Shown here: positions 48,389-54,107 of the stretch, piece by piece
Layout: each line of letters opens with the position of its first letter
Numbering within the stretch: position 1 is the stretch's first letter
IMG/VR virus record: IMGVR_UViG_3300028048_000073
Span: 62,660 to 126,659 of that record
Strand: one strand, 5' to 3'
DNA: 64,000 nt
Origin: a virus
Notes under the pieces: generated by a model
What the model saw: the letters and a program-made list of their open reading frames with translations, nothing else
Databases searched by the model: none
Told to the model about the DNA's origin: nothing
Translations under genes and position numbers: made by a program

Positions 48389-48465
48389 GTGGAACGTGAG
48401 GGATTCGAACCCATCTGTCTGTTGATTATGAGTCAACTGCTTTTTCCTCTTAAGCTACCGTTCCA
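48389..48465 (-). tRNA. tRNA-Met/Ile2 (anticodon CAT), atypical T-arm
   Basis: Acceptor stem and D-arm (GCTT/AAGC) are good. The anticodon stem GTTGA/TCAAC encloses the loop CTCATAA. The T-stem has only 3-4 base pairs. Confidence 0.5.
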
Positions 48466-48470
48466 AAATT

Positions 48471-48695
48471 TCATGGCTCAATGATGATAAATGGTTCAAT
48501 AGCCATATAAATATCCTCTTCACTATCTACCCATAGATTTTCAAACTCCATCGCGTGGAGTGCCCCAAGGACAGATTTAGCATTGACTGTAAGACCATTT
48601 CCATCGGTTATTGTAATTCTACCGTTAAGTCTTGCGGCGATAGCTGCAAATTCATTTGCCTGCTTCACTGTATCAATTCTTATTCGATTTCTCAT
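48471..48695 (-). CDS. HPr-like fold protein lacking the active-site His, hypothetical
   Basis: Weak HPr-like pattern: ANEFAAIAARLNGRITITDGNGLTVNAKSVLGAL. Confidence 0.25.
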   Translation of the reverse strand: MRNRIRIDTVKQANEFAAIAARLNGRITITDGNGLTVNAKSVLGALHAMEFENLWVDSEEDIYMAIEPFIIIEP

Positions 48696-48822
48696 ATTAT
48701 AATCTCCTTTAAATTATCTGTAGGGGACTAATTAGTCGATTGGTGGAAGATGTCGGAATCAAACCGCTCCCCGATGTCCCAAACATCGGATGCTATCATC
48801 ACACCCCATCCTCCATATAAAG

Positions 48823-48895
48823 TGACTCCTGCGGGACTCGAACCCAGCGTCTCTGATGTGAAAGACCAGCGTCTTTGCCTCTTGACTAAGGAGCC
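48823..48895 (-). tRNA. tRNA-Glu (anticodon TTC)
   Basis: Cloverleaf with the anticodon loop CTTTCAC and the T-loop TTCGAGT. Confidence 0.65.
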
Positions 48896-49175
48896 ATAAC
48901 ACCTGAGGTTTCCTAACCAATATCACTATTGTAACTCTAACCTCACAAGAGTTGTATATATTTTAATTGGAGGTAATAATGATTAGTTTTCTAGTCTGCG
49001 AAGAGCGCGTTCAGCTTTACGAATCAATCGTAGATTTTTCATTTCTCCCTTTGCCTTAAGGGCTGCAATGCGATTCTCATAATGTAGCTTATCTCTTATC
49101 ATTTAATTTTCTCTCCTTAATTTCTATAAATATTATATCATAATTTTTTATATTTTACAAATAAGGCTTTATAAA

Positions 49176-49249
49176 AGCTACTGGTCCGATTCGAACGGAC
49201 GTGAACGGTTTACAAGACCGACATACTAGACCCCTATATGACAGTAGCA
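49176..49249 (-). tRNA. tRNA-Thr (anticodon TGT)
   Basis: Acceptor stem GCTACTG/CAGTAGC, anticodon loop CTTGTAA, T-arm GTCCG-TTCGAAT-CGGAC. Confidence 0.6.
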
Positions 49250-49310
49250 TATCGGCTTTAAGGTCAGCTAACCGCACATACTTTTTTACTTGGCTATTTG
49301 CTTTCCAATG

Positions 49311-49385
49311 TGGCACCCGCGGAACGATTCGAACGCTCGATCTTTAGATTCGTAGTCTACTGCTTTTTCCGCTAAGCTACACGGG
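49311..49385 (-). tRNA. tRNA-Arg (anticodon ACG), CCA encoded
   Basis: Anticodon loop CTACGAA, T-arm GAGCG-TTCGAAT-CGTTC, ends in GCCA. Confidence 0.7.
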
Positions 49386-49390
49386 CATAT

Positions 49391-49466
49391 TGGTACGGCG
49401 AGAAGGAATTGAACCCTCGACACGCGCCTTAGAAGGGCACTGTTCTTTCCGCTGAACTACCGCCGC
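49391..49466 (-). tRNA. tRNA-Arg (anticodon TCT), CCA encoded
   Basis: Anticodon stem GTGCC/GGCGC with the loop CTTCTAA. T-loop TTCAATT. Confidence 0.7.
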
Positions 49467-49495
49467 ATATTTTCTTTTCTGGTATTCATTGTTAA

Positions 49496-49741
49496 TTATT
49501 CTAAGTTATTGATGATATTATCAAAATTATCTCTAACTTTAAGTAAGTCTTTTTTAGACATCTGTTTTAATAGCATATCTGACGGTAATCCTATGACTGG
49601 ATTCTCCAGTCCTTTTGTTCGTAAAGCGGCAGTTAAATTATTAAATGCAGAACACGCTTCCTCAACGCTACAGTCATTTAGACTATAATAAAGAACATAA
49701 ATGCTATTTTCCAAAAGAGGAATGTTCTCTATATCAACCAT
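49496..49741 (-). CDS. hypothetical protein
   Basis: 81-aa ORF. Confidence 0.3.
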   Translation of the reverse strand: MVDIENIPLLENSIYVLYYSLNDCSVEEACSAFNNLTAALRTKGLENPVIGLPSDMLLKQMSKKDLLKVRDNFDNIINNLE

Positions 49742-49775
49742 GTTTTAAAGCACCTCTTTTTGAGATTTCATATTC

Positions 49776-52484: not shown

Positions 52485-52838
52485 ATATTATGTGGATTTT
52501 AGTGGCGGAGATTATCCACGGAACTCTATACTTTTAAGGCAAGTAGCCATAGCCTAAGTAGAGGATAGAGGTTATGCTTCTCTTTTACACGATCCTCAAC
52601 CGCGGTCGTGCGTTTTTACTGATTAAACTAATCCTCAATATAGTGCCAACCATTTCCTATTGGCATGGAGTAGGTTTTCATCTCCCATATGTCCGCAAAC
52701 ATATGCCGCTATTCTGGTACGGGTATGCTATATCGGAGTCAAGTACTTGCAGTTCTTCTTTCAAAGTTTTTTTATTCAGTAACAGACCTTTGTAACTTGC
52801 AATCATTACTCATGATCGACACCTAATCCGAAACCCGT

Positions 52839-52924
52839 TGGTGGGTGAAGAGGGTAACGCTCCCACTCGAACCATAGGTACGGGTTTTACAGACCCGCTC
52901 GTCTCTTTAACGATTTACTCACCC
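52839..52924 (-). tRNA. tRNA-Tyr (anticodon GTA), class II, CCA encoded
   Basis: Acceptor stem GGGTGAG/TTCACCC. Anticodon stem CGGGT/ACCCG with the loop CTGTAAA. A 14-nt variable arm. T-arm GTGGG-AGCGTTA-CCCTC with a non-canonical loop. Confidence 0.6.
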
Positions 52925-53149
52925 AGATATCTACTCCGTCGCCCCTCATGGGCTTATTCGGGACGGAAGTCACGCCGAGACCGCTTTACTCCCTCTAAGT
53001 GAAAGCTGTCATAAAAACTTGCGGACGCTTTAGTTTCACCGCATTACCCTTATCTTACTTTGCTATTGCTCAAAGATGACGTCCATTCTTCGTGCGCGGG
53101 GTCATTGGTTAGCCCAACTTTTTATTTTAACATCGCAGTCAACGATGGC

Positions 53150-53284
53150 TGGTAGCGGTAACGGGACTTGAACCCGTACGAGCAACTGCCCAACGGATTT
53201 TTGGAGCCAATACAAAGTGCTGCCCTTTGTTATTGCGACTGCGCATCGGCAAGTCCGTCGTGTCTGCCATTCCACCATACCGCC
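53150..53284 (-). tRNA. tRNA-Leu-like gene of 135 nt with a 49-nt insertion in the anticodon loop at position 34/35; the inferred mature anticodon is TAA
   Basis: The 5' half GGCGGTA-TG-GTGGAATGGCAGACAC-G-ACGGA-CTT and the 3' half AAAA-TCCGT-TGGGCAGTTGCTCGT-ACGGG-TTCAAGT-CCCGT-TACCGCT-A-CCA are canonical. The D-arm is shared with the Leu(TAG) and (CAA) tRNAs. The insertion GCCGATGCGCAGTCGCAATAACAAAGGGCAGCACTTTGTATTGGCTCCA lies between U34 and A35. Confidence 0.5.
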
Positions 53285-53380
53285 ATTTTTATCATCATCA
53301 GTCTTTATTGGCGCAAATGTCTCTAATTTAGAAGTCTTTGCTTGTATAAATGTCGATGATGATTGTTTAGAAAGTTTTTT

Positions 53381-53426
53381 CTTAACTTTCTATATATATT
53401 ATAACAAAAATTTTTAAATTTTTCAA
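53381..53426 (-). promoter_or_regulatory. Conserved early promoter driving the long Leu-like tRNA
   Basis: TTGAAA-N17-TATAAT-ATATATAGAAAGTTAAG. Confidence 0.6.
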
Positions 53427-53537
53427 TTTAAGCATTTTTGTTATCGGTCAGTTTTTTAAGAAACGCCCGCACTGAGGGCGGAAAGCAGTTGCCCAAGTTG
53501 CCCGAGGAATGATCCTCTACGTTTCTCAATAGGCAAG

Positions 53538-53620
53538 TGGTACGGATGACAGGACTTGAACCTGCACGCTTTCGCACCAGAGCCTAAATCTGGCGTGTCT
53601 GCCAATTTCACCACATCCGC
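53538..53620 (-). tRNA. tRNA-Leu (anticodon TAG), class II, CCA encoded
   Basis: GCGGATG-TG-GTGAAATTGGCAGACAC-G-CCAGA-TTTAGGC-TCTGG-(11-nt variable arm)-GCAGG-TTCAAGT-CCTGT-CATCCGT-A-CCA. G1-U72. Confidence 0.7.
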
Positions 53621-53806
53621 AAATCCATACGGTAGTTTTACAGGTAAAAACTACCAAATCCCCGTTACCTCGACTTTTCTACCCCGTTTTCAACCTTCAA
53701 ATATGAGGTCTCTCAGCTTGTTCTTCAGCTCAGGCAACTCCACGGCTCTGGTTCTATTTTCATACGACAGCTCAAGCCAGTATCTGACGGGTTTTTAAGT
53801 TTTTTC

Positions 53807-53852
53807 CTTAACTTTCTATATATATTATAACAAAAATTTTTAAATTTTTCAA
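53807..53852 (-). promoter_or_regulatory. Conserved early promoter driving tRNA-Leu(TAG)
   Basis: TTGAAA-N17-TATAAT-ATATATAGAAAGTTAAG. Confidence 0.6.
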
Positions 53853-53882
53853 TTTAAGCATTTTTGTTATAATGCTTAAAAG

Positions 53883-53957
53883 CACGGGACAACAGATTCG
53901 AACTGTTAAACACTTGCCTCTAATGGCAAGCGGCTTTACCAATTTGCCTAATCCCGT
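53883..53957 (-). tRNA. Atypical tRNA with an 8-nt anticodon loop CAUUAGAG; candidate suppressor or frameshift tRNA
   Basis: All other elements have standard lengths: ACGGGAT-TA-GGCAAATTGGTAAAGCC-G-CTTGC-[CATTAGAG]-GCAAG-TGTTT-AACAG-TTCGAAT-CTGTT-GTCCCGT-G. Alternatively the stem is 6 bp and the loop 6 nt. The loop contains both UUA and UAG triplets. A1-U72 and G73 resemble Gln-type identity elements. Confidence 0.55.
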
Positions 53958-54030
53958 ATGTTTCAAACGTGGGCAGATGCTTATTCTAATATATCACATT
54001 AACCACGCTTGTTATAACTGCCCCGTTGAA

Positions 54031-54107
54031 TGGTAGGTTGTTTGGGACTCGAACCCAAAAAATCCACTTTTTGAGAGTGGCGTGTCTGCCAATTGCACCA
54101 ACAACCC
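54031..54107 (-). tRNA. tRNA with anticodon CAA and a Leu-type D-arm but a class I short variable loop, CCA encoded
   Basis: GGGTTGT-TG-GTGCAATTGGCAGACAC-G-CCACT-CTCAAAA-AGTGG-ATTTT-TTGGG-TTCGAGT-CCCAA-ACAACCT-A-CCA. Confidence 0.65.

What the first reader, a model, noticed from the sequence alone, without database searches (positions are those of the whole stretch)
48389..54107. Large tRNA arsenal with individually promoted genes, Leu-derived paralogs and systematic deviations from canonical structure
About 17 tRNA or tRNA-like genes lie on the minus strand. The specificities found are Met x2, Glu, Thr, Arg x2, Lys, Asn, Gln, Cys, Ser, Tyr and Leu x3-4, plus one 8-nt-loop species and one degenerate species. 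Many follow their own copy of the consensus promoter, for example at 51695, 52071, 53381, 53807 and 54205. Recurrent oddities are a G1-U72 or U1-A72 first pair in at least 7 genes, and non-TΨC T-loops (AGCGTAA in Gln, AGCGTTA in Tyr, ATCGTGC in Asn). One Met tRNA has the initiator-like C1xA72 mismatch but lacks the three G-C pairs in its anticodon stem. A CAA-anticodon tRNA has a Leu-type D-arm but a class I variable loop. One tRNA-like gene at 51466-51537 has an essentially unpaired anticodon stem. The array sits next to a complete RNA healing and sealing module (Pnk, phosphoesterase, Rnl1), which is consistent with defence against host anticodon nucleases.
Basis: partly seen in the sequence, partly recalled or inferred. 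Interest (0 to 1): 0.5.

Follow-up and report, generated by a model that had tools for sequence, protein, structure and literature searches.

The report
Phage tRNA array with tRNA-like mini-intron
This is a real cluster of 19 transfer-RNA genes in a large gut or rumen phage, and one of them (tRNA-Leu) is interrupted inside its anticodon by a 49-base miniature tRNA look-alike that belongs to a conserved, apparently undescribed family of phage tRNA introns.

Summary
The array is real. Rfam's tRNA model accepts 17 genes at 48389-54107 (minus strand). Two more (Tyr, Pro) are supported by homologues in other phages. Five near-identical strong promoters drive sub-clusters, not single genes. Anticodons match the phage's A-ending codons (GC3 0.30).

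Most "oddities" are compensated and recur in related phages, so they look selected:
- G18 to A18 occurs together with U55 to G55.
- U54/A58 swaps to A54/U58.
- G19-C56 becomes A19-U56.

Two genes look degenerate: an Asp-derived AUC gene and an 8-nt-loop gene.

The insert starts with an acceptor-like helix, carries a T-arm-like hairpin, and ends in N-CCA. I found 17 distinct inserts of this design in phage tRNA-Leu, Gln, Lys and an amber suppressor. In every one the helix stack is 12 layers, the stems covary, and the exons are intact.

I infer, but have not shown, that RNase P cuts the 5' junction and the phage RNA ligase Rnl1 joins the exons. The RNA-repair genes exist but lie 19-24 kb away, not next to the array. 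The anticodon-nuclease defence idea is plausible but untested.

The parts
48389..48464 (-). tRNA(CAU) no. 1: elongator Met, or Ile2 if lysidinylated. Has G7.A66 and a bulged U in the T-stem.
   Evidence: Rfam 49.4 bits; ARAGORN. AUA makes up 29% of Ile codons and the window has no UAU tRNA.
48741..48814 (-). tRNA-Pro(UGG) with an 8-bp acceptor and a 4-layer T-stem, D-loop GAUGAUA, T-loop UUUGAUU, encoded ACCA
   Evidence: ARAGORN only at lowered threshold. Homologue of L007 2299-2372, which has AAUGGUA/UUCGAGU, so G19-C56 has become A19-U56. No Rfam hit.
48822..48895 (-). tRNA-Glu(UUC) with one bulged nucleotide in the T-stem
   Evidence: Rfam 51.7 bits. The same bulge is present in L013 tRNA-Glu.
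49176..49248 (-). tRNA-Thr(UGU)
   Evidence: Rfam 50.8 bits
49249..49309 (-). Conserved leader/spacer RNA motif (model R1), copy 2. It fills the gap between tRNA-Arg(ACG) and tRNA-Thr.
   Evidence: cmsearch 67.2 bits; covariation
49311..49386 (-). tRNA-Arg(ACG), G1.U72, encoded CCA
   Evidence: Rfam 57.0 bits
49391..49466 (-). tRNA-Arg(UCU), G1.U72, encoded CCA. ARAGORN miscalls it Pyl/CUA.
   Evidence: The Rfam alignment gives five standard pairs and the loop CUUCUAA. ARAGORN's fold has a C.C mismatch.
50683..50758 (-). tRNA-Lys(UUU), fully canonical
   Evidence: Rfam 72.9 bits
50895..50965 (-). tRNA-Gly(UCC) with a variant elbow: D-loop AACAGUA, T-loop AGCAUCA
   Evidence: Rfam 52.6 bits; alignment with relatives
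50966..51031 (-). Conserved leader RNA motif (model R1), copy 1, directly 5' of tRNA-Gly
   Evidence: cmsearch 67.6 bits; 94% identical over 51 nt to L004
51233..51306 (-). tRNA-Asn(GUU), U1-A72, T-loop AUCGUGC (A54/U58 swap)
   Evidence: Rfam 61.1 bits. The same T-loop type occurs in L024, L047, L048 and L057.
51314..51387 (-). tRNA-Gln(UUG), G1.U72, D-loop AAUAGUA, T-loop AGCGUAA
   Evidence: Rfam 55.2 bits
51466..51537 (-). tRNA-Asp-derived gene with anticodon AUC, a weak anticodon stem and GCUA instead of GCCA. Probably decaying or re-purposed.
   Evidence: Rfam 41.1 bits. Its 5' 14 nt are identical to L015/L026 tRNA-Asp(GUC).
51590..51665 (-). Initiator-like tRNA(CAU): C1xA72, G2-C71, C3-G70 and A11:U24, but A29-U41/G30-C40/C31-G39
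   Evidence: Rfam 60.5 bits with alignment
51983..52056 (-). tRNA-Cys(GCA)
   Evidence: Rfam 48.3 bits
52395..52484 (-). tRNA-Ser(UGA), class II, G1.U72
   Evidence: Rfam 41.6 bits; ARAGORN
52839..52924 (-). tRNA-Tyr(GUA), class II, D-loop with AG instead of GG, T-loop AGCGUUA, a conserved U50.U64, encoded ACCA
   Evidence: 78% identical to L015 4110-4198. In the family alignment and fold, 14 of 19 pairs are compensated. No Rfam hit.
53150..53284 (-). tRNA-Leu(UAA) interrupted at U34|A35. Exon 1 is 53251-53284 and exon 2 is 53150-53201.
   Evidence: Rfam 43.8 bits over 132 nt; ARAGORN -i. The spliced sequence is called tRNA-Leu(UAA) and aligns with intron-less phage genes.
53202..53250 (-). 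49-nt tRNA-like mini-intron. In order: acceptor-like helix GCCGAU/AUUGGC, GCG-CAGU-CGC hairpin, T-arm-like ACAAAG-GGCAGCA-CUUUGU hairpin, then U-CCA.
   Evidence: Model R2 48 bits, E = 3e-13. Family of 17 inserts, each with 12 stacked layers and an N-CCA end. Covariation.
53285..53392 (-). Structured leader of the tRNA-Leu(UAA) unit: a 5' hairpin GAAAGUU/AACUUUC and a 10-bp stem AUCAUCAUCG/CUGAUGAUGAU
   Evidence: z = -6.45 against dinucleotide shuffles; fold
53538..53620 (-). tRNA-Leu(UAG), class II, G1.U72. It has its own promoter and terminator.
   Evidence: Rfam 54.4 bits; terminator at 53464-53480
53882..53957 (-). Leu-derived tRNA-like gene with an 8-nt anticodon loop CAUUAGAG (or a 6-nt loop if C-G closes), A1-U72, G73, no encoded CCA
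   Evidence: Rfam 47.1 bits; ARAGORN 'tRNA-???'
54031..54107 (-). tRNA(CAA) with a Leu D-arm and A73 but a 5-nt (class I) variable loop
   Evidence: Rfam 53.6 bits; alignment with Leu genes
54213..54248 (-). Consensus promoter for the unit Leu(CAA) plus the 8-nt-loop gene
   Evidence: 11 of 12 hexamer matches plus TG
53817..53852 (-). Consensus promoter for Leu(UAG)
53391..53426 (-). Consensus promoter for the unit Leu(UAA)-intron, Tyr, Ser
52081..52116 (-). Consensus promoter for Cys
51702..51737 (-). Consensus promoter for the unit starting with initiator-like Met
53464..53480 (-). Intrinsic-terminator-like hairpin after Leu(UAG)
49776..50516 (-). 246-aa ORF inside the array. Its conserved C-terminal domain also lies next to tRNA arrays in other phages.
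28278..29396 (-). Rnl1-type RNA ligase, about 19 kb from the array
   Evidence: Pfam RNA_lig_T4_1, E = 2.5e-12; T4 Rnl1 structures, E = 2e-14
24935..25468 (-). P-loop polynucleotide-kinase-like protein
   Evidence: Pfam AAA_33, E = 6.5e-17; T4 Pnk and C. thermocellum Pnkp kinase domains
24364..24837 (-). Metallophosphoesterase
   Evidence: phrog_547, E = 4e-38; Pfam Metallophos_2 at 25 bits, just below its cut-off
29579..30334 (-). RlaP-like nucleotidyltransferase (RNA-repair-associated)
   Evidence: Pfam RlaP, E = 6.4e-6; phrog_388

Best explanation
What it is. The region is a working tRNA gene cluster of a large, AT-rich (36% GC) lytic phage, probably infecting gut or rumen Clostridia. It holds 19 tRNA or tRNA-like genes in about six transcription units. 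Five units start at near-identical strong sigma-A-type promoters with an extended -10 element.

What it does. The tRNAs mostly read the A-ending codons the phage prefers. They therefore top up, or replace, the host tRNA pool during infection.

Why the tRNAs look odd. Their D-loop/T-loop 'elbow' has been rebuilt by paired changes:
- A18 with G55
- A54 with U58
- A19 with U56
- an 8+4 instead of a 7+5 acceptor/T stack

These changes keep the fold. The tRNAs are therefore functional variants, not wrecks. Two genes are probably decaying or re-purposed: the Asp-derived AUC gene and the 8-nt-loop gene.

The insert. The only tRNA-Leu(UAA) gene is interrupted between U34 and A35 by a 49-nt element that copies the top half of a tRNA. 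The element consists of an acceptor helix, a T-arm, a mini D-hairpin and N-CCA. It belongs to a conserved family of phage tRNA introns and must be removed to give a functional tRNA.

Inferred mechanism (not shown).
1. Host RNase P recognises the intron as a tRNA and cuts exactly at its first base, leaving exon 1 with a 3'-OH.
2. A second cut follows the CCA. The enzyme is unknown.
3. The two halves stay together through the outer tRNA's own stems.
4. The phage Rnl1 ligase seals them, helped if needed by the phage kinase and phosphoesterase.

The confidence given (0.65) is for the array, the compensated elbows and the intron family taken together. For the RNase P plus Rnl1 mechanism alone I put it at about 0.35.
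For: ARRAY AND EXPRESSION SIGNALS
- 17 Rfam tRNA hits at 41-73 bits.
- 12 of 19 genes encode CCA.
- Five promoters match 11 of 12 hexamer positions plus TG.

CODON MATCH
- GC3 is 0.30. GAA, AAA, CAA, ACA, AGA, GGA and UUA are the top codons and each has a matching phage tRNA.

COMPENSATED ELBOW CHANGES
- 296 of 298 tRNAs with a canonical TTCRA T-loop (U55) have GG in the D-loop (282 of 284 in relatives, 14 of 14 in the window). All 6 G55 tRNAs have AG instead (Fisher p = 3e-11).
- Inside one homologous Tyr family, GG/UUC (L017, L029) alternates with AG/UGC (L015, L058) and AG/AGC...U58 (window). Its cloverleaf shows 14 of 19 compensated pairs.
- Pro: G19-C56 in L007 against A19-U56 in the window.
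- The AUCGU T-loop recurs in four other phages.
- The T-stem bulge of Glu is shared with L013.

INTRON FAMILY
- A scan that did not require CCA found 18 phage loci with 12 further distinct inserts at the same place in tRNA-Leu(UAA).
- Model R2 then found the element in tRNA-Gln (two loci), tRNA-Lys and an amber suppressor.
- In all 17 inserts the T-stem plus acceptor helix is exactly 12 layers, the helix begins at intron base 1, and the intron ends in N-CCA. For L162 and L166 this holds once the boundary is placed at 35/36.
- Stems covary: 81.5% of cells paired against 54% in shuffles, 89 doubly changed cells, 0 of 500 shuffles as high.
- All in-silico-spliced genes are called as normal tRNAs.
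- GGCAGCA and GGCAGUA are real T-loops of full-length tRNAs in these phages.
- An 87-nt full tRNA-like insert in L015/L026 obeys the same rule. Removing it from +1 to CCA restores tRNA-Thr(UGU), with the junction at U34|G35.

LIGASE
- The window encodes a T4-type Rnl1, a kinase and a phosphoesterase.
- Rnl1 homologues lie within 10 kb of the intron-bearing tRNA in L153, L176 and L179. They are on the same contig in L162 and L164.
Against: - There are no expression, processing or aminoacylation data.
- The host is unknown, so codon complementation against the host cannot be measured.
- No near relative of this phage was found. The other assemblies of it are 99.99% identical. Conservation was therefore judged from distant phages, gene by gene.
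- Tyr and Pro fail the Rfam model.
- No enzyme is known here that would cut after CCA. In B. subtilis, CCA inhibits RNase Z (from memory).
- Rnl1 is 19 kb from the array.
- Rnl1 was confirmed on only 5 of 18 intron-bearing contigs.
- The first two family scans fixed the exon sequence and the GGGCAGCAC loop. That loop's invariance among the Leu introns is therefore partly imposed by the search.
- On its own the 49-nt insert folds most stably as one long hairpin (-15.3 kcal/mol). The three-way junction is 2.5 kcal/mol less stable.
Confidence: 0.65

Rival explanations
1. Anti-defence arsenal. The main role of the array is to replace host tRNAs destroyed by anticodon nucleases or other tRNA-targeting defences. 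The structural variants escape those nucleases. Rnl1, the kinase and the phosphoesterase repair whatever is still cut. This can be true alongside the codon-supply role.
For: - The window holds a T4-like heal-and-seal set.
- The literature links phage tRNA regions to escape from tRNA-cleaving defences, for example Septu cutting tRNA-Tyr (PMC13096335, listed).
- The rebuilt elbows and weak 1:72 pairs change surfaces that proteins read.
Against: - The anticodon loops of Lys, Glu, Gln, Tyr and Asn are canonical. The changes are at the elbow and the acceptor end, not where known anticodon nucleases bind.
- The repair genes are 19-24 kb away.
- No host nuclease is known.
Confidence: 0.3
2. Relaxed selection. 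Much of the array is decaying duplicate tRNA genes, and the oddities are mutational damage in an AT-rich genome.
For: - The Asp-derived gene has G34A, two anticodon-stem mismatches and CCA changed to CUA.
- The 8-nt-loop gene has G73 on a Leu body.
- Pro and Tyr fail Rfam.
- The spacers show no special folding stability (z between -0.2 and -1.2).
Against: - The changes are paired and keep tertiary and secondary contacts.
- The same variants recur in distant phages.
- 17 of 19 genes pass the covariance model.
Confidence: 0.12
3. The insert is a small self-cleaving or self-splicing ribozyme of a new class, not a substrate of tRNA-processing enzymes.
For: - CAGU and GGCAGCA loops are invariant in a roughly 50-nt three-way junction.
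- No protein is yet assigned to the 3' cut.
Against: - There is no hit to any Rfam ribozyme at E <= 1.
- The conserved loops match the variant D- and T-loops of real tRNAs in the same phages.
- The 12-layer stack and the N-CCA end are tRNA features.
- No ribozyme of this size is known to do both splicing steps (from memory).
Confidence: 0.1
4. The insert is a mobile tRNA-like element that has disabled the gene. The released mini-tRNA (for example a decoy) is the product and the outer tRNA is never rebuilt.
For: - The element occurs in several different tRNAs and at two neighbouring sites, 34/35 and 35/36.
- It has the ends of a mature tRNA.
Against: - Exons are intact and give normal tRNAs in 19 of 19 spliced sequences despite divergent exon sequences.
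- UUA is the phage's most used Leu codon and this is its only Leu(UAA) gene in the window.
- The gene keeps its own promoter and a structured leader.
Confidence: 0.1

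Closest known systems
tRNA gene clusters of large lytic phages (T4, T5, huge-phage and megaphage arrays)
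   Same: Many tRNA genes are packed between early or middle promoters. They are biased towards the phage's own codon usage and are accompanied in the genome by Rnl1 and Pnk-type repair enzymes. In relatives the arrays also hold ROOL, GOLLD or tmRNA (PMC5737381).
   Different: There is a high share of rebuilt elbows (5 of 19 non-TTCRA T-loops against 16 of 300 in relatives) and 37% G1.U72. There are class-I Leu-type and 8-nt-loop paralogues. The window itself has no ROOL or GOLLD.
'Enigmatic introns' in Lak megaphage tRNAs (bioRxiv 10.1101/356790)
   Same: Short non-group-I inserts in phage tRNA genes are conserved across samples. One of them (in tRNA-Thr UGU) was itself predicted to be a tRNA. 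L015/L026 here show a tRNA-Thr(UGU) with a tRNA-like insert.
   Different: That paper gives no structural rule or mechanism. Here the rule is explicit: the helix starts at base 1, the stack has 12 layers, the intron ends in N-CCA, and the site is 34/35 or 35/36. Whether the Lak introns follow the rule could not be checked, because no supplement is held.
Group I intron of cyanobacterial and plastid tRNA-Leu(UAA)
   Same: The host tRNA is the same and, from memory, so is the site (between U34 and A35). The last exon-1 base is U.
   Different: These inserts are 47-66 nt rather than more than 200 nt. There is no Rfam group I hit, no terminal G, and no room for a P3-P9 catalytic core.
tRNA-like elements used as RNase P/RNase Z processing signals (mitochondrial tRNA punctuation, MALAT1 mascRNA) - from memory
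   Same: A tRNA-shaped module inside a longer RNA is recognised by tRNA end-processing enzymes, and its ends define the cut sites.
   Different: Here the module sits inside the anticodon of another tRNA, so the flanks have to be re-ligated. It is reduced to the top half and carries an encoded CCA.
T4 Pnkp/Rnl1 repair of anticodon-loop breaks - from memory
   Same: An Rnl1-family ligase seals a break in an otherwise intact tRNA anticodon loop. A kinase and a phosphatase heal the ends.
   Different: In T4 the break is made by a host defence nuclease (PrrC, between 33 and 34). Here the proposed breaks are programmed and flank an intron. The phosphatase is a metallophosphoesterase, as in C. thermocellum Pnkp.
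tRNAs lacking G18G19/T-Psi-C (tRNA-Pyl, type II mitochondrial tRNAs) and 8/4 allo-tRNAs
   Same: The canonical D-loop/T-loop contacts are lost (PMC7609411). An 8+4 acceptor/T stack replaces 7+5 (allo-tRNAs, from memory).
   Different: Here the contacts are replaced by specific partner changes (A18/G55, A54/U58, A19/U56). This happens in ordinary elongator tRNAs of a phage.

Membership tests
tRNA (Rfam RF00005) | Covariance-model score at or above the gathering cut-off of 29 bits | tested here: met
   17 genes score 41.1-72.9 bits. Tyr (52839-52924) and Pro (48741-48814) do not reach it even at E <= 1. They are accepted on homology and ARAGORN calls.
tRNA (Rfam RF00005) | Canonical elbow: G18G19 in the D-loop and U54-U55-C56-R57-A58 in the T-loop | tested here: not met
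   Not met in Gly, Gln, Tyr, Asn and Pro. The replacements are paired changes. The other 14 genes meet it.
Bacterial initiator tRNA-fMet | C1xA72 mismatch with G2-C71 and C3-G70 | tested here: met
   51590-51665: 5' CGCAGUG and 3' CACUGCA-ACCA
Bacterial initiator tRNA-fMet | A11:U24 in the D-stem | tested here: met
   The D-stem reads GACC/CGUC, giving A11-U24.
Bacterial initiator tRNA-fMet | Three consecutive G-C pairs at 29-41, 30-40 and 31-39 | tested here: not met
   The pairs are A29-U41, G30-C40 and C31-G39.
Bacterial tRNA-Leu (class II) | Long variable arm | tested here: not met
   The CAA gene (54031-54107) has a 5-nt variable loop and the 8-nt-loop gene has 5-6 nt. Leu(UAG) and Leu(UAA) meet the feature.
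Bacterial tRNA-Leu (class II) | Discriminator A73 and a Leu-type D-arm | tested here: met
   Met for CAA, UAG and UAA. The 8-nt-loop gene has G73.
Suppressor or Pyl tRNA (CUA) | Anticodon CUA in a 7-nt loop closed by a regular stem | tested here: not met
   The ARAGORN fold needs a C.C mismatch, whereas the regular stem gives UCU. Stop-codon use is normal: TAA 44, TGA 20, TAG 3.
Group I intron | Catalytic core of more than about 200 nt that matches the Rfam Intron_gpI model, with a terminal G | tested here: not met
   The insert is 49 nt, ends in A, and gives no Rfam hit at E <= 1.
Archaeal/eukaryal BHB tRNA intron | Bulge-helix-bulge motif, usually at 37/38 | tested here: not met
   The site is 34/35. 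Exon 2 begins AAAA, which cannot form the 4-bp central helix with the intron's 5' bases (read directly from the sequence).
Known small self-cleaving ribozymes (hammerhead, twister, pistol, hatchet, HDV-like) | Match to the Rfam model | tested here: not met
   No hit at E <= 1 in 47500-55500.
tRNA-like mini-intron family defined here (model R2) | The helix starts at intron base 1, T-stem plus acceptor make 12 layers, and the intron ends N-CCA inside the anticodon of an intact tRNA | tested here: met
   The window insert scores 48 bits, has 6+6 layers and ends U-CCA at U34|A35. 17 of 17 family members meet the rule.
tRNA-like mini-intron family defined here (model R2) | Removal from the RNA and rejoining of the exons | not testable with these tools
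   Only inferred, from intact exons in 19 of 19 spliced sequences.
T4-type RNA heal-and-seal module | Rnl1-family ligase | tested here: met
   Pfam RNA_lig_T4_1, E = 2.5e-12; T4 Rnl1 2c5u, E = 2e-14 over residues 33-329.
T4-type RNA heal-and-seal module | Polynucleotide 5'-kinase and 3'-phosphatase | tested here: inconclusive
   The kinase resembles T4 Pnk and CthPnkp kinase domains (E about 1e-5). The phosphoesterase is of the calcineurin type (phrog_547, E = 4e-38), not the T4 DxDxT type. Activities are untested.
T4-type RNA heal-and-seal module | Adjacency to the tRNA array, as the finding claims | tested here: not met
   The module is 19-24 kb away, with PFL, tail-fibre-like and other genes between.
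ROOL / GOLLD large RNAs | Match to RF03087 or RF02032 | tested here: not met
   None in the window. Present in arrays of related phages.

The most novel reading that the evidence does not exclude
Phages carry a third kind of tRNA intron, distinct from self-splicing group I introns and from bulge-helix-bulge introns.

The intron is a miniature tRNA 'top half' placed inside the anticodon at 34/35 or 35/36. The cell's own tRNA end-processing machinery excises it: RNase P at its base +1, and an unknown activity after its CCA. A phage Rnl1-type ligase then rejoins the exons.

If so, the phage 'RNA repair' enzymes would double as a splicing ligase. That would make phage tRNA-Leu, Gln, Lys and suppressor function depend on phage gene expression. 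It would also give a bacterial-virus counterpart of the eukaryotic endonuclease-plus-Trl1 pathway.
Probability: 0.35. Interest if true: 0.88.

Novelty: new variant of a known kind. Interest (0 to 1): 0.72.

Why it matters
- Phage tRNA arrays are usually read simply as codon top-ups or anti-defence spares. This one shows that tRNA tertiary contacts thought to be near-invariant (G18-Psi55, G19-C56, T54-A58) can be swapped for other partners in working tRNAs. That is useful for tRNA engineering and for improving gene finders that currently miss such genes.
- The mini-intron family gives a concrete structural rule and a testable mechanism for the 'enigmatic' introns reported in megaphage tRNAs. 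It also suggests a housekeeping role for phage Rnl1/Pnk enzymes beyond countering host nucleases.
- The L162 amber-suppressor member offers a ready-made genetic splicing reporter.
- Standard annotation (ARAGORN default, tRNAscan bacterial mode) skips these genes, so phage tRNA repertoires are being under-counted.

Tried and rejected
1. Amber suppressor or stop-codon recoding. ARAGORN's Pyl(CUA) call is a misfold of Arg(UCU), and stop-codon usage is ordinary.
2. Group I intron, BHB intron and known small ribozymes as explanations for the insert. It gives no Rfam hit, is the wrong size, has the wrong ends, and no BHB can be drawn.
3. A hidden ROOL- or GOLLD-like large RNA in the 660-nt gap 52485-53149 and in the other spacers. 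There is no Rfam hit. Folding z-scores are -0.2 to -1.2. There is no similarity to the other loci.
4. Close relatives, to test conservation directly.
   - INPHARED has no match.
   - Exact-protein look-ups return only the same phage at 99.99% identity.
   - Homologues of the flanking 264-aa protein lie on contigs without arrays.
   - Exact tRNA words are absent from IMG/VR.
5. A second copy of the insert in the window: none.
6. Mitochondrial-mode ARAGORN on the 49-nt insert gives no call. The insert is a top-half mimic, not a full armless tRNA.
7. The Lak megaphage intron table is not held in the library.
8. A literature search for phage tRNA splicing or tRNA-like introns found nothing beyond the Lak report.
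9. A systematic 'delete each tRNA and refold the flanks' test over 392 calls found only the L015/L026 nested tRNA.
10. Host identification from the pyruvate formate-lyase gene gives only 'gut/rumen Clostridia' at 66-69% identity.

Full report
**1. The observation**

Rfam's tRNA model finds 17 genes on the minus strand between 48390 and 54107. Scores run from 41 to 73 bits against a cut-off of 29. ARAGORN at default settings finds 14. Allowing introns adds a Leu(UAA) gene with a 49-nt insert. Lowering the threshold adds Gly(UCC), an Asp-like gene, Tyr(GUA) and Pro(UGG).

The full set is: CAU x2, Pro UGG, Glu UUC, Thr UGU, Arg ACG, Arg UCU, Lys UUU, Gly UCC, Asn GUU, Gln UUG, an Asp-derived AUC gene, Cys GCA, Ser UGA, Tyr GUA, Leu UAA, Leu UAG, a Leu-derived gene with an 8-nt loop, and a class-I Leu-type CAA gene. 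Twelve encode CCA.

ARAGORN's 'Pyl(CUA)' at 49391-49466 is a misfold containing a C.C mismatch. The regular five-pair stem gives Arg(UCU). Stop-codon usage is ordinary.

**2. Transcription units**

A 46-nt consensus (TTGAAA, 17 nt, TGnTATAAT, then ATATATAGAAAGTTAAG) occurs 10 times in the window, against 0.01 expected. Each precedes one to five tRNAs.

Leu(UAG) has its own promoter and its own terminator at 53464-53480. 'Individually promoted' is therefore true for some genes only.

The leader of the Leu(UAA) unit is unusually stable (z = -6.45). The other spacers are not (z between -0.2 and -1.2).

**3. The genome around it**

The window comes from a large phage with no near relative among 50,697 deposited phages. 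It encodes:
- DnaB, primase, GyrA and GyrB, and an NAD-dependent ligase
- a pyruvate formate-lyase
- many GIY-YIG and LAGLIDADG endonucleases
- an amidase with an SH3 domain

The formate-lyase is 66-69% identical to those of gut and rumen Clostridia. That is the only host clue.

The RNA-repair genes are real:
- Rnl1 matches T4 Rnl1 structures at E = 2e-14.
- A P-loop kinase resembles the T4 Pnk and C. thermocellum Pnkp kinase domains.
- There is a metallophosphoesterase (phrog_547, E = 4e-38).
- There is an RlaP-like nucleotidyltransferase.

These genes lie at 24.4-30.3 kb, which is 19-24 kb from the array and not next to it.

**4. Codon supply**

Across 15,869 codons, GC3 is 0.30. The preferred codons are GAA, AAA, CAA, ACA, AGA, GGA and UUA, and each has a cognate phage tRNA. 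AUA makes up 29% of Ile codons and there is no UAU tRNA, so one of the two CAU genes may be a lysidine-type Ile tRNA. That point is inference.

**5. Are the oddities damage or design?**

I gathered arrays from other large phages by three routes:
- scanning IMG/VR for the promoter word
- scanning IMG/VR and metagenomes for the in-array ORF
- scanning IMG/VR for a leader motif

These gave about 300 tRNAs.

In that set:
- 284 of 300 tRNAs have the canonical TTCRA T-loop.
- 282 of those 284 have GG in the D-loop.
- Every tRNA with G at position 55 has AG instead of GG. These are Tyr in L015 and L058, Leu in L015, and Gly, Gln and Tyr in the window (Fisher p = 3e-11).

Within one homologous Tyr family the states alternate. 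L017 and L029 have GG with UUCGA. L015 and L058 have AG with UGCGA. The window has AG with AGCGU, which adds a U54/A58 to A54/U58 swap. The family's cloverleaf shows 14 of 19 compensated pairs, and a U50.U64 mismatch is conserved in five of the eight aligned genes.

Other recurrences:
- The window's Asn T-loop AUCGUGC (the same 54/58 swap) recurs in four other phages.
- The Pro gene is a homologue of L007 2299-2372. Both have an 8-bp acceptor with a 4-layer T-stem. L007 has G19/C56 where the window has A19/U56.
- Glu shares its T-stem bulge with L013.
- G1.U72 is three times more frequent here than in the relatives (7 of 19 against 31 of 287, p = 0.004). Even in the relatives only 51% of first pairs are G-C.

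Most deviations are therefore paired changes that preserve the fold, and they are shared across phages. That argues for function.

The exceptions are two genes:
- The gene at 51466-51537 is an Asp(GUC) homologue with G34A, a weakened stem and CCA changed to CUA.
- The 8-nt-loop gene carries G73 on a Leu body.

**6. The insert in tRNA-Leu(UAA)**

With bases 53202-53250 removed, the gene aligns base for base with intron-less phage tRNA-Leu(UAA) genes. The boundaries are forced by the need for the loop CUUAAAA, so the insert lies between U34 and A35.

The 49 nt read, in order:
1. GCCGAU
2. a GCG-CAGU-CGC hairpin
3. AAUA
4. an ACAAAG-GGCAGCA-CUUUGU hairpin
5. AUUGGC, which pairs with the first six bases
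6. U-CCA

That is the layout of a tRNA acceptor stem stacked on a T-arm and followed by a discriminator base and CCA. The insert is not a group I intron, not a bulge-helix-bulge intron, and not a known ribozyme.

**7. The insert is one of a family**

- A scan for the exon words with an insert ending in CCA found two other phage genes. Their insert sequences differ but the design and the GGCAGCA loop are the same.
- A second scan did not require CCA. It found 25 stretches, of which 18 are tRNA-Leu(UAA) genes on phage contigs, mostly 46-212 kb long. These hold 12 further distinct inserts.
- A covariance model built from the inserts (R2) re-found all of them at 37-59 bits. It also found the element in two homologous tRNA-Gln(UUG) genes (at 34/35 in L173 and 35/36 in L165), in a tRNA-Lys(UUU) (L178) and in a class-II amber suppressor (L162).

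All 17 distinct inserts share these features:
- The helix begins at the first intron base.
- T-stem plus acceptor helix make exactly 12 layers (6+6, 7+5, or 6 + mismatch + 5).
- The intron ends in N-CCA. For L162-Leu and L166-Leu this holds once the ambiguous boundary is placed at 35/36.

The stems covary strongly. 81.5% of cells are paired, against 54% in shuffles, with 89 doubly changed cells, and 0 of 500 shuffles reach that value. The three inner helices are 92-97% paired.

After in-silico removal of the insert, all 19 distinct sequences are called as ordinary tRNAs.

The model also hit the 3' halves of full-length tRNAs whose true T-loop is GGCAGCA or GGCAGUA and whose D-loop has AG (L153 Pro, L004 Lys, L167). 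The intron's hairpin is therefore a genuine T-arm of the variant type described in section 5. Its CAGU tetraloop matches the variant D-loop YAGUA.

A larger relative of the idea occurs in L015/L026. There an 87-nt complete tRNA-like insert sits in a tRNA. Removing it from +1 to CCA restores a 7-nt loop with anticodon UGU and a junction at U34|G35. The 3' half of that outer tRNA best matches a phage tRNA-Thr.

The only precedent I found is the report of 'enigmatic introns' in Lak megaphage tRNAs, one of which, in tRNA-Thr(UGU), was predicted to be a tRNA.

**8. Mechanism**

*Shown:*
- The design of the insert.
- Its conservation.
- The intact exons.
- The presence of Rnl1, a kinase and a phosphoesterase in this phage.
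- Rnl1 homologues within 10 kb of the intron-bearing gene in L153, L176 and L179.
- Rnl1 homologues on the same contig in L162 and L164.

*Inferred:*
- An acceptor/T minihelix with an elbow and RCCA is the classic minimal RNase P substrate (from memory). Here U(-1)/G(+1) is its preferred context. RNase P should therefore cut exactly at the 5' junction.
- The outer tRNA's acceptor, D and T stems would hold the halves together.
- Rnl1 enzymes seal breaks in anticodon loops (T4 precedent, from memory).

*Unknown:*
- What cuts after the CCA.
- Whether the ends need healing.

Alternatives are a new small ribozyme, or a disabling mobile element whose mini-tRNA is the real product. Both are less likely, for the reasons given under the rival explanations.

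**9. Verdict**

The finding is a real and functional phage tRNA array. The repair module is distant, not adjacent. The anti-nuclease reading remains possible but untested.

The array as such is a known kind of thing. Its rebuilt tRNA elbows and the tRNA-like mini-intron family appear to be undescribed.

Noticed in passing
window 50966-51031 (-) and 49249-49309 (-); also L004 5962-6037, L047 5408-5483 and 10175-10249, L048 2372-2448 and 2482-2558, L053, L054, L055, L057 (x2), L058, L059, L061: A conserved RNA motif of about 60 nt lies directly 5' of tRNA genes in many large phages. It consists of a hairpin [U/A]GGAA-AAGCAAAA-UUCC[A/U], a linker ..AAYAACAAAUGUGC, then GGUU-NNNN-GACCUUAA(A)-N'N'N'N', in which NNNN pairs with N'N'N'N' (a possible small pseudoknot). 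91.9% of cells are paired, 8 of 9 pairs have double changes, and 0 of 500 shuffles reach this. There is no Rfam match. It ends 6-12 nt before tRNA +1. Its function is unknown; it could be a processing or regulatory signal.
   Followed up: yes
L017 5569-6169, L053 1898-2494, L054 5882-6477, L057 1566-2154, L058 972-1561 and 1950-2417, L059 3144-3739, L061 505-1101, L016 7441-7791: tRNA arrays of related phages embed ROOL RNAs (7 loci), a GOLLD RNA (L058) and a tmRNA (L016). The window's array has none.
   Followed up: partly
L014 11224-11348: Another phage tRNA-Leu(UAA) carries a different 40-nt insert at about 36/37. This insert simply extends the anticodon arm into a long hairpin and has no CCA. 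It may be a second kind of insert.
   Followed up: partly
L016 5775-5865; L061 5085-5183; L162 ~770-925: Unusual tRNAs in related phages: a tRNA-Cys(GCA) with a roughly 21-nt variable arm, and amber-suppressor tRNAs (CUA) with class-II long variable arms. One of the suppressors carries the mini-intron.
   Followed up: no
window 52332-52393 (-): A perfect tandem duplication of a 31-nt unit (CAGTGTATGGAACGGCTGTATAAATGTTCC-like) lies just 3' of tRNA-Ser. Each copy can form a GGAAC/GUUCC hairpin.
   Followed up: no
window 44819-44945 and 46614-46741 (+): A 128-nt repeat at 96% identity links the 5' ends of two neighbouring tail-associated genes (the 360-aa ORF and the Peptidase_G2 ORF). Three paralogous DUF6273 genes at 38849-43231 are 44-73% identical to one another.
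   Followed up: no
window 16950-22635 (-): The gyrB and gyrA genes are separated by a LAGLIDADG endonuclease ORF (19304-20293). The gyrA match starts at profile position 59, which suggests an intron or intein-type interruption. The window also holds three GIY-YIG ORFs and a second LAGLIDADG ORF.
   Followed up: no
window 33640-35853 (-): A full-length pyruvate formate-lyase with a glycyl-radical domain (Pfam 638 bits) is carried by the phage. It is 66-69% identical to those of gut and rumen Clostridia and is preceded by a copy of the consensus promoter at 33227-33272.
   Followed up: partly
window 25461-25985 (-): An ORF between the kinase and Rnl1 matches a PHROG annotated 'ribosome associated inhibitor A; zinc finger domain' (E = 6e-12). 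It is conserved next to the kinase and phosphoesterase in L014, L022 and L032.
   Followed up: no
window 53285-53392 (-): Transcripts from the consensus promoters begin with GAAAGUUAAG..AACUUUC, which forms a 9-bp 5' hairpin. The Leu(UAA) leader adds a 10-bp stem that encloses a nested hairpin (z = -6.45). This may be a 5'-end stabiliser or an RNase III site.
   Followed up: partly
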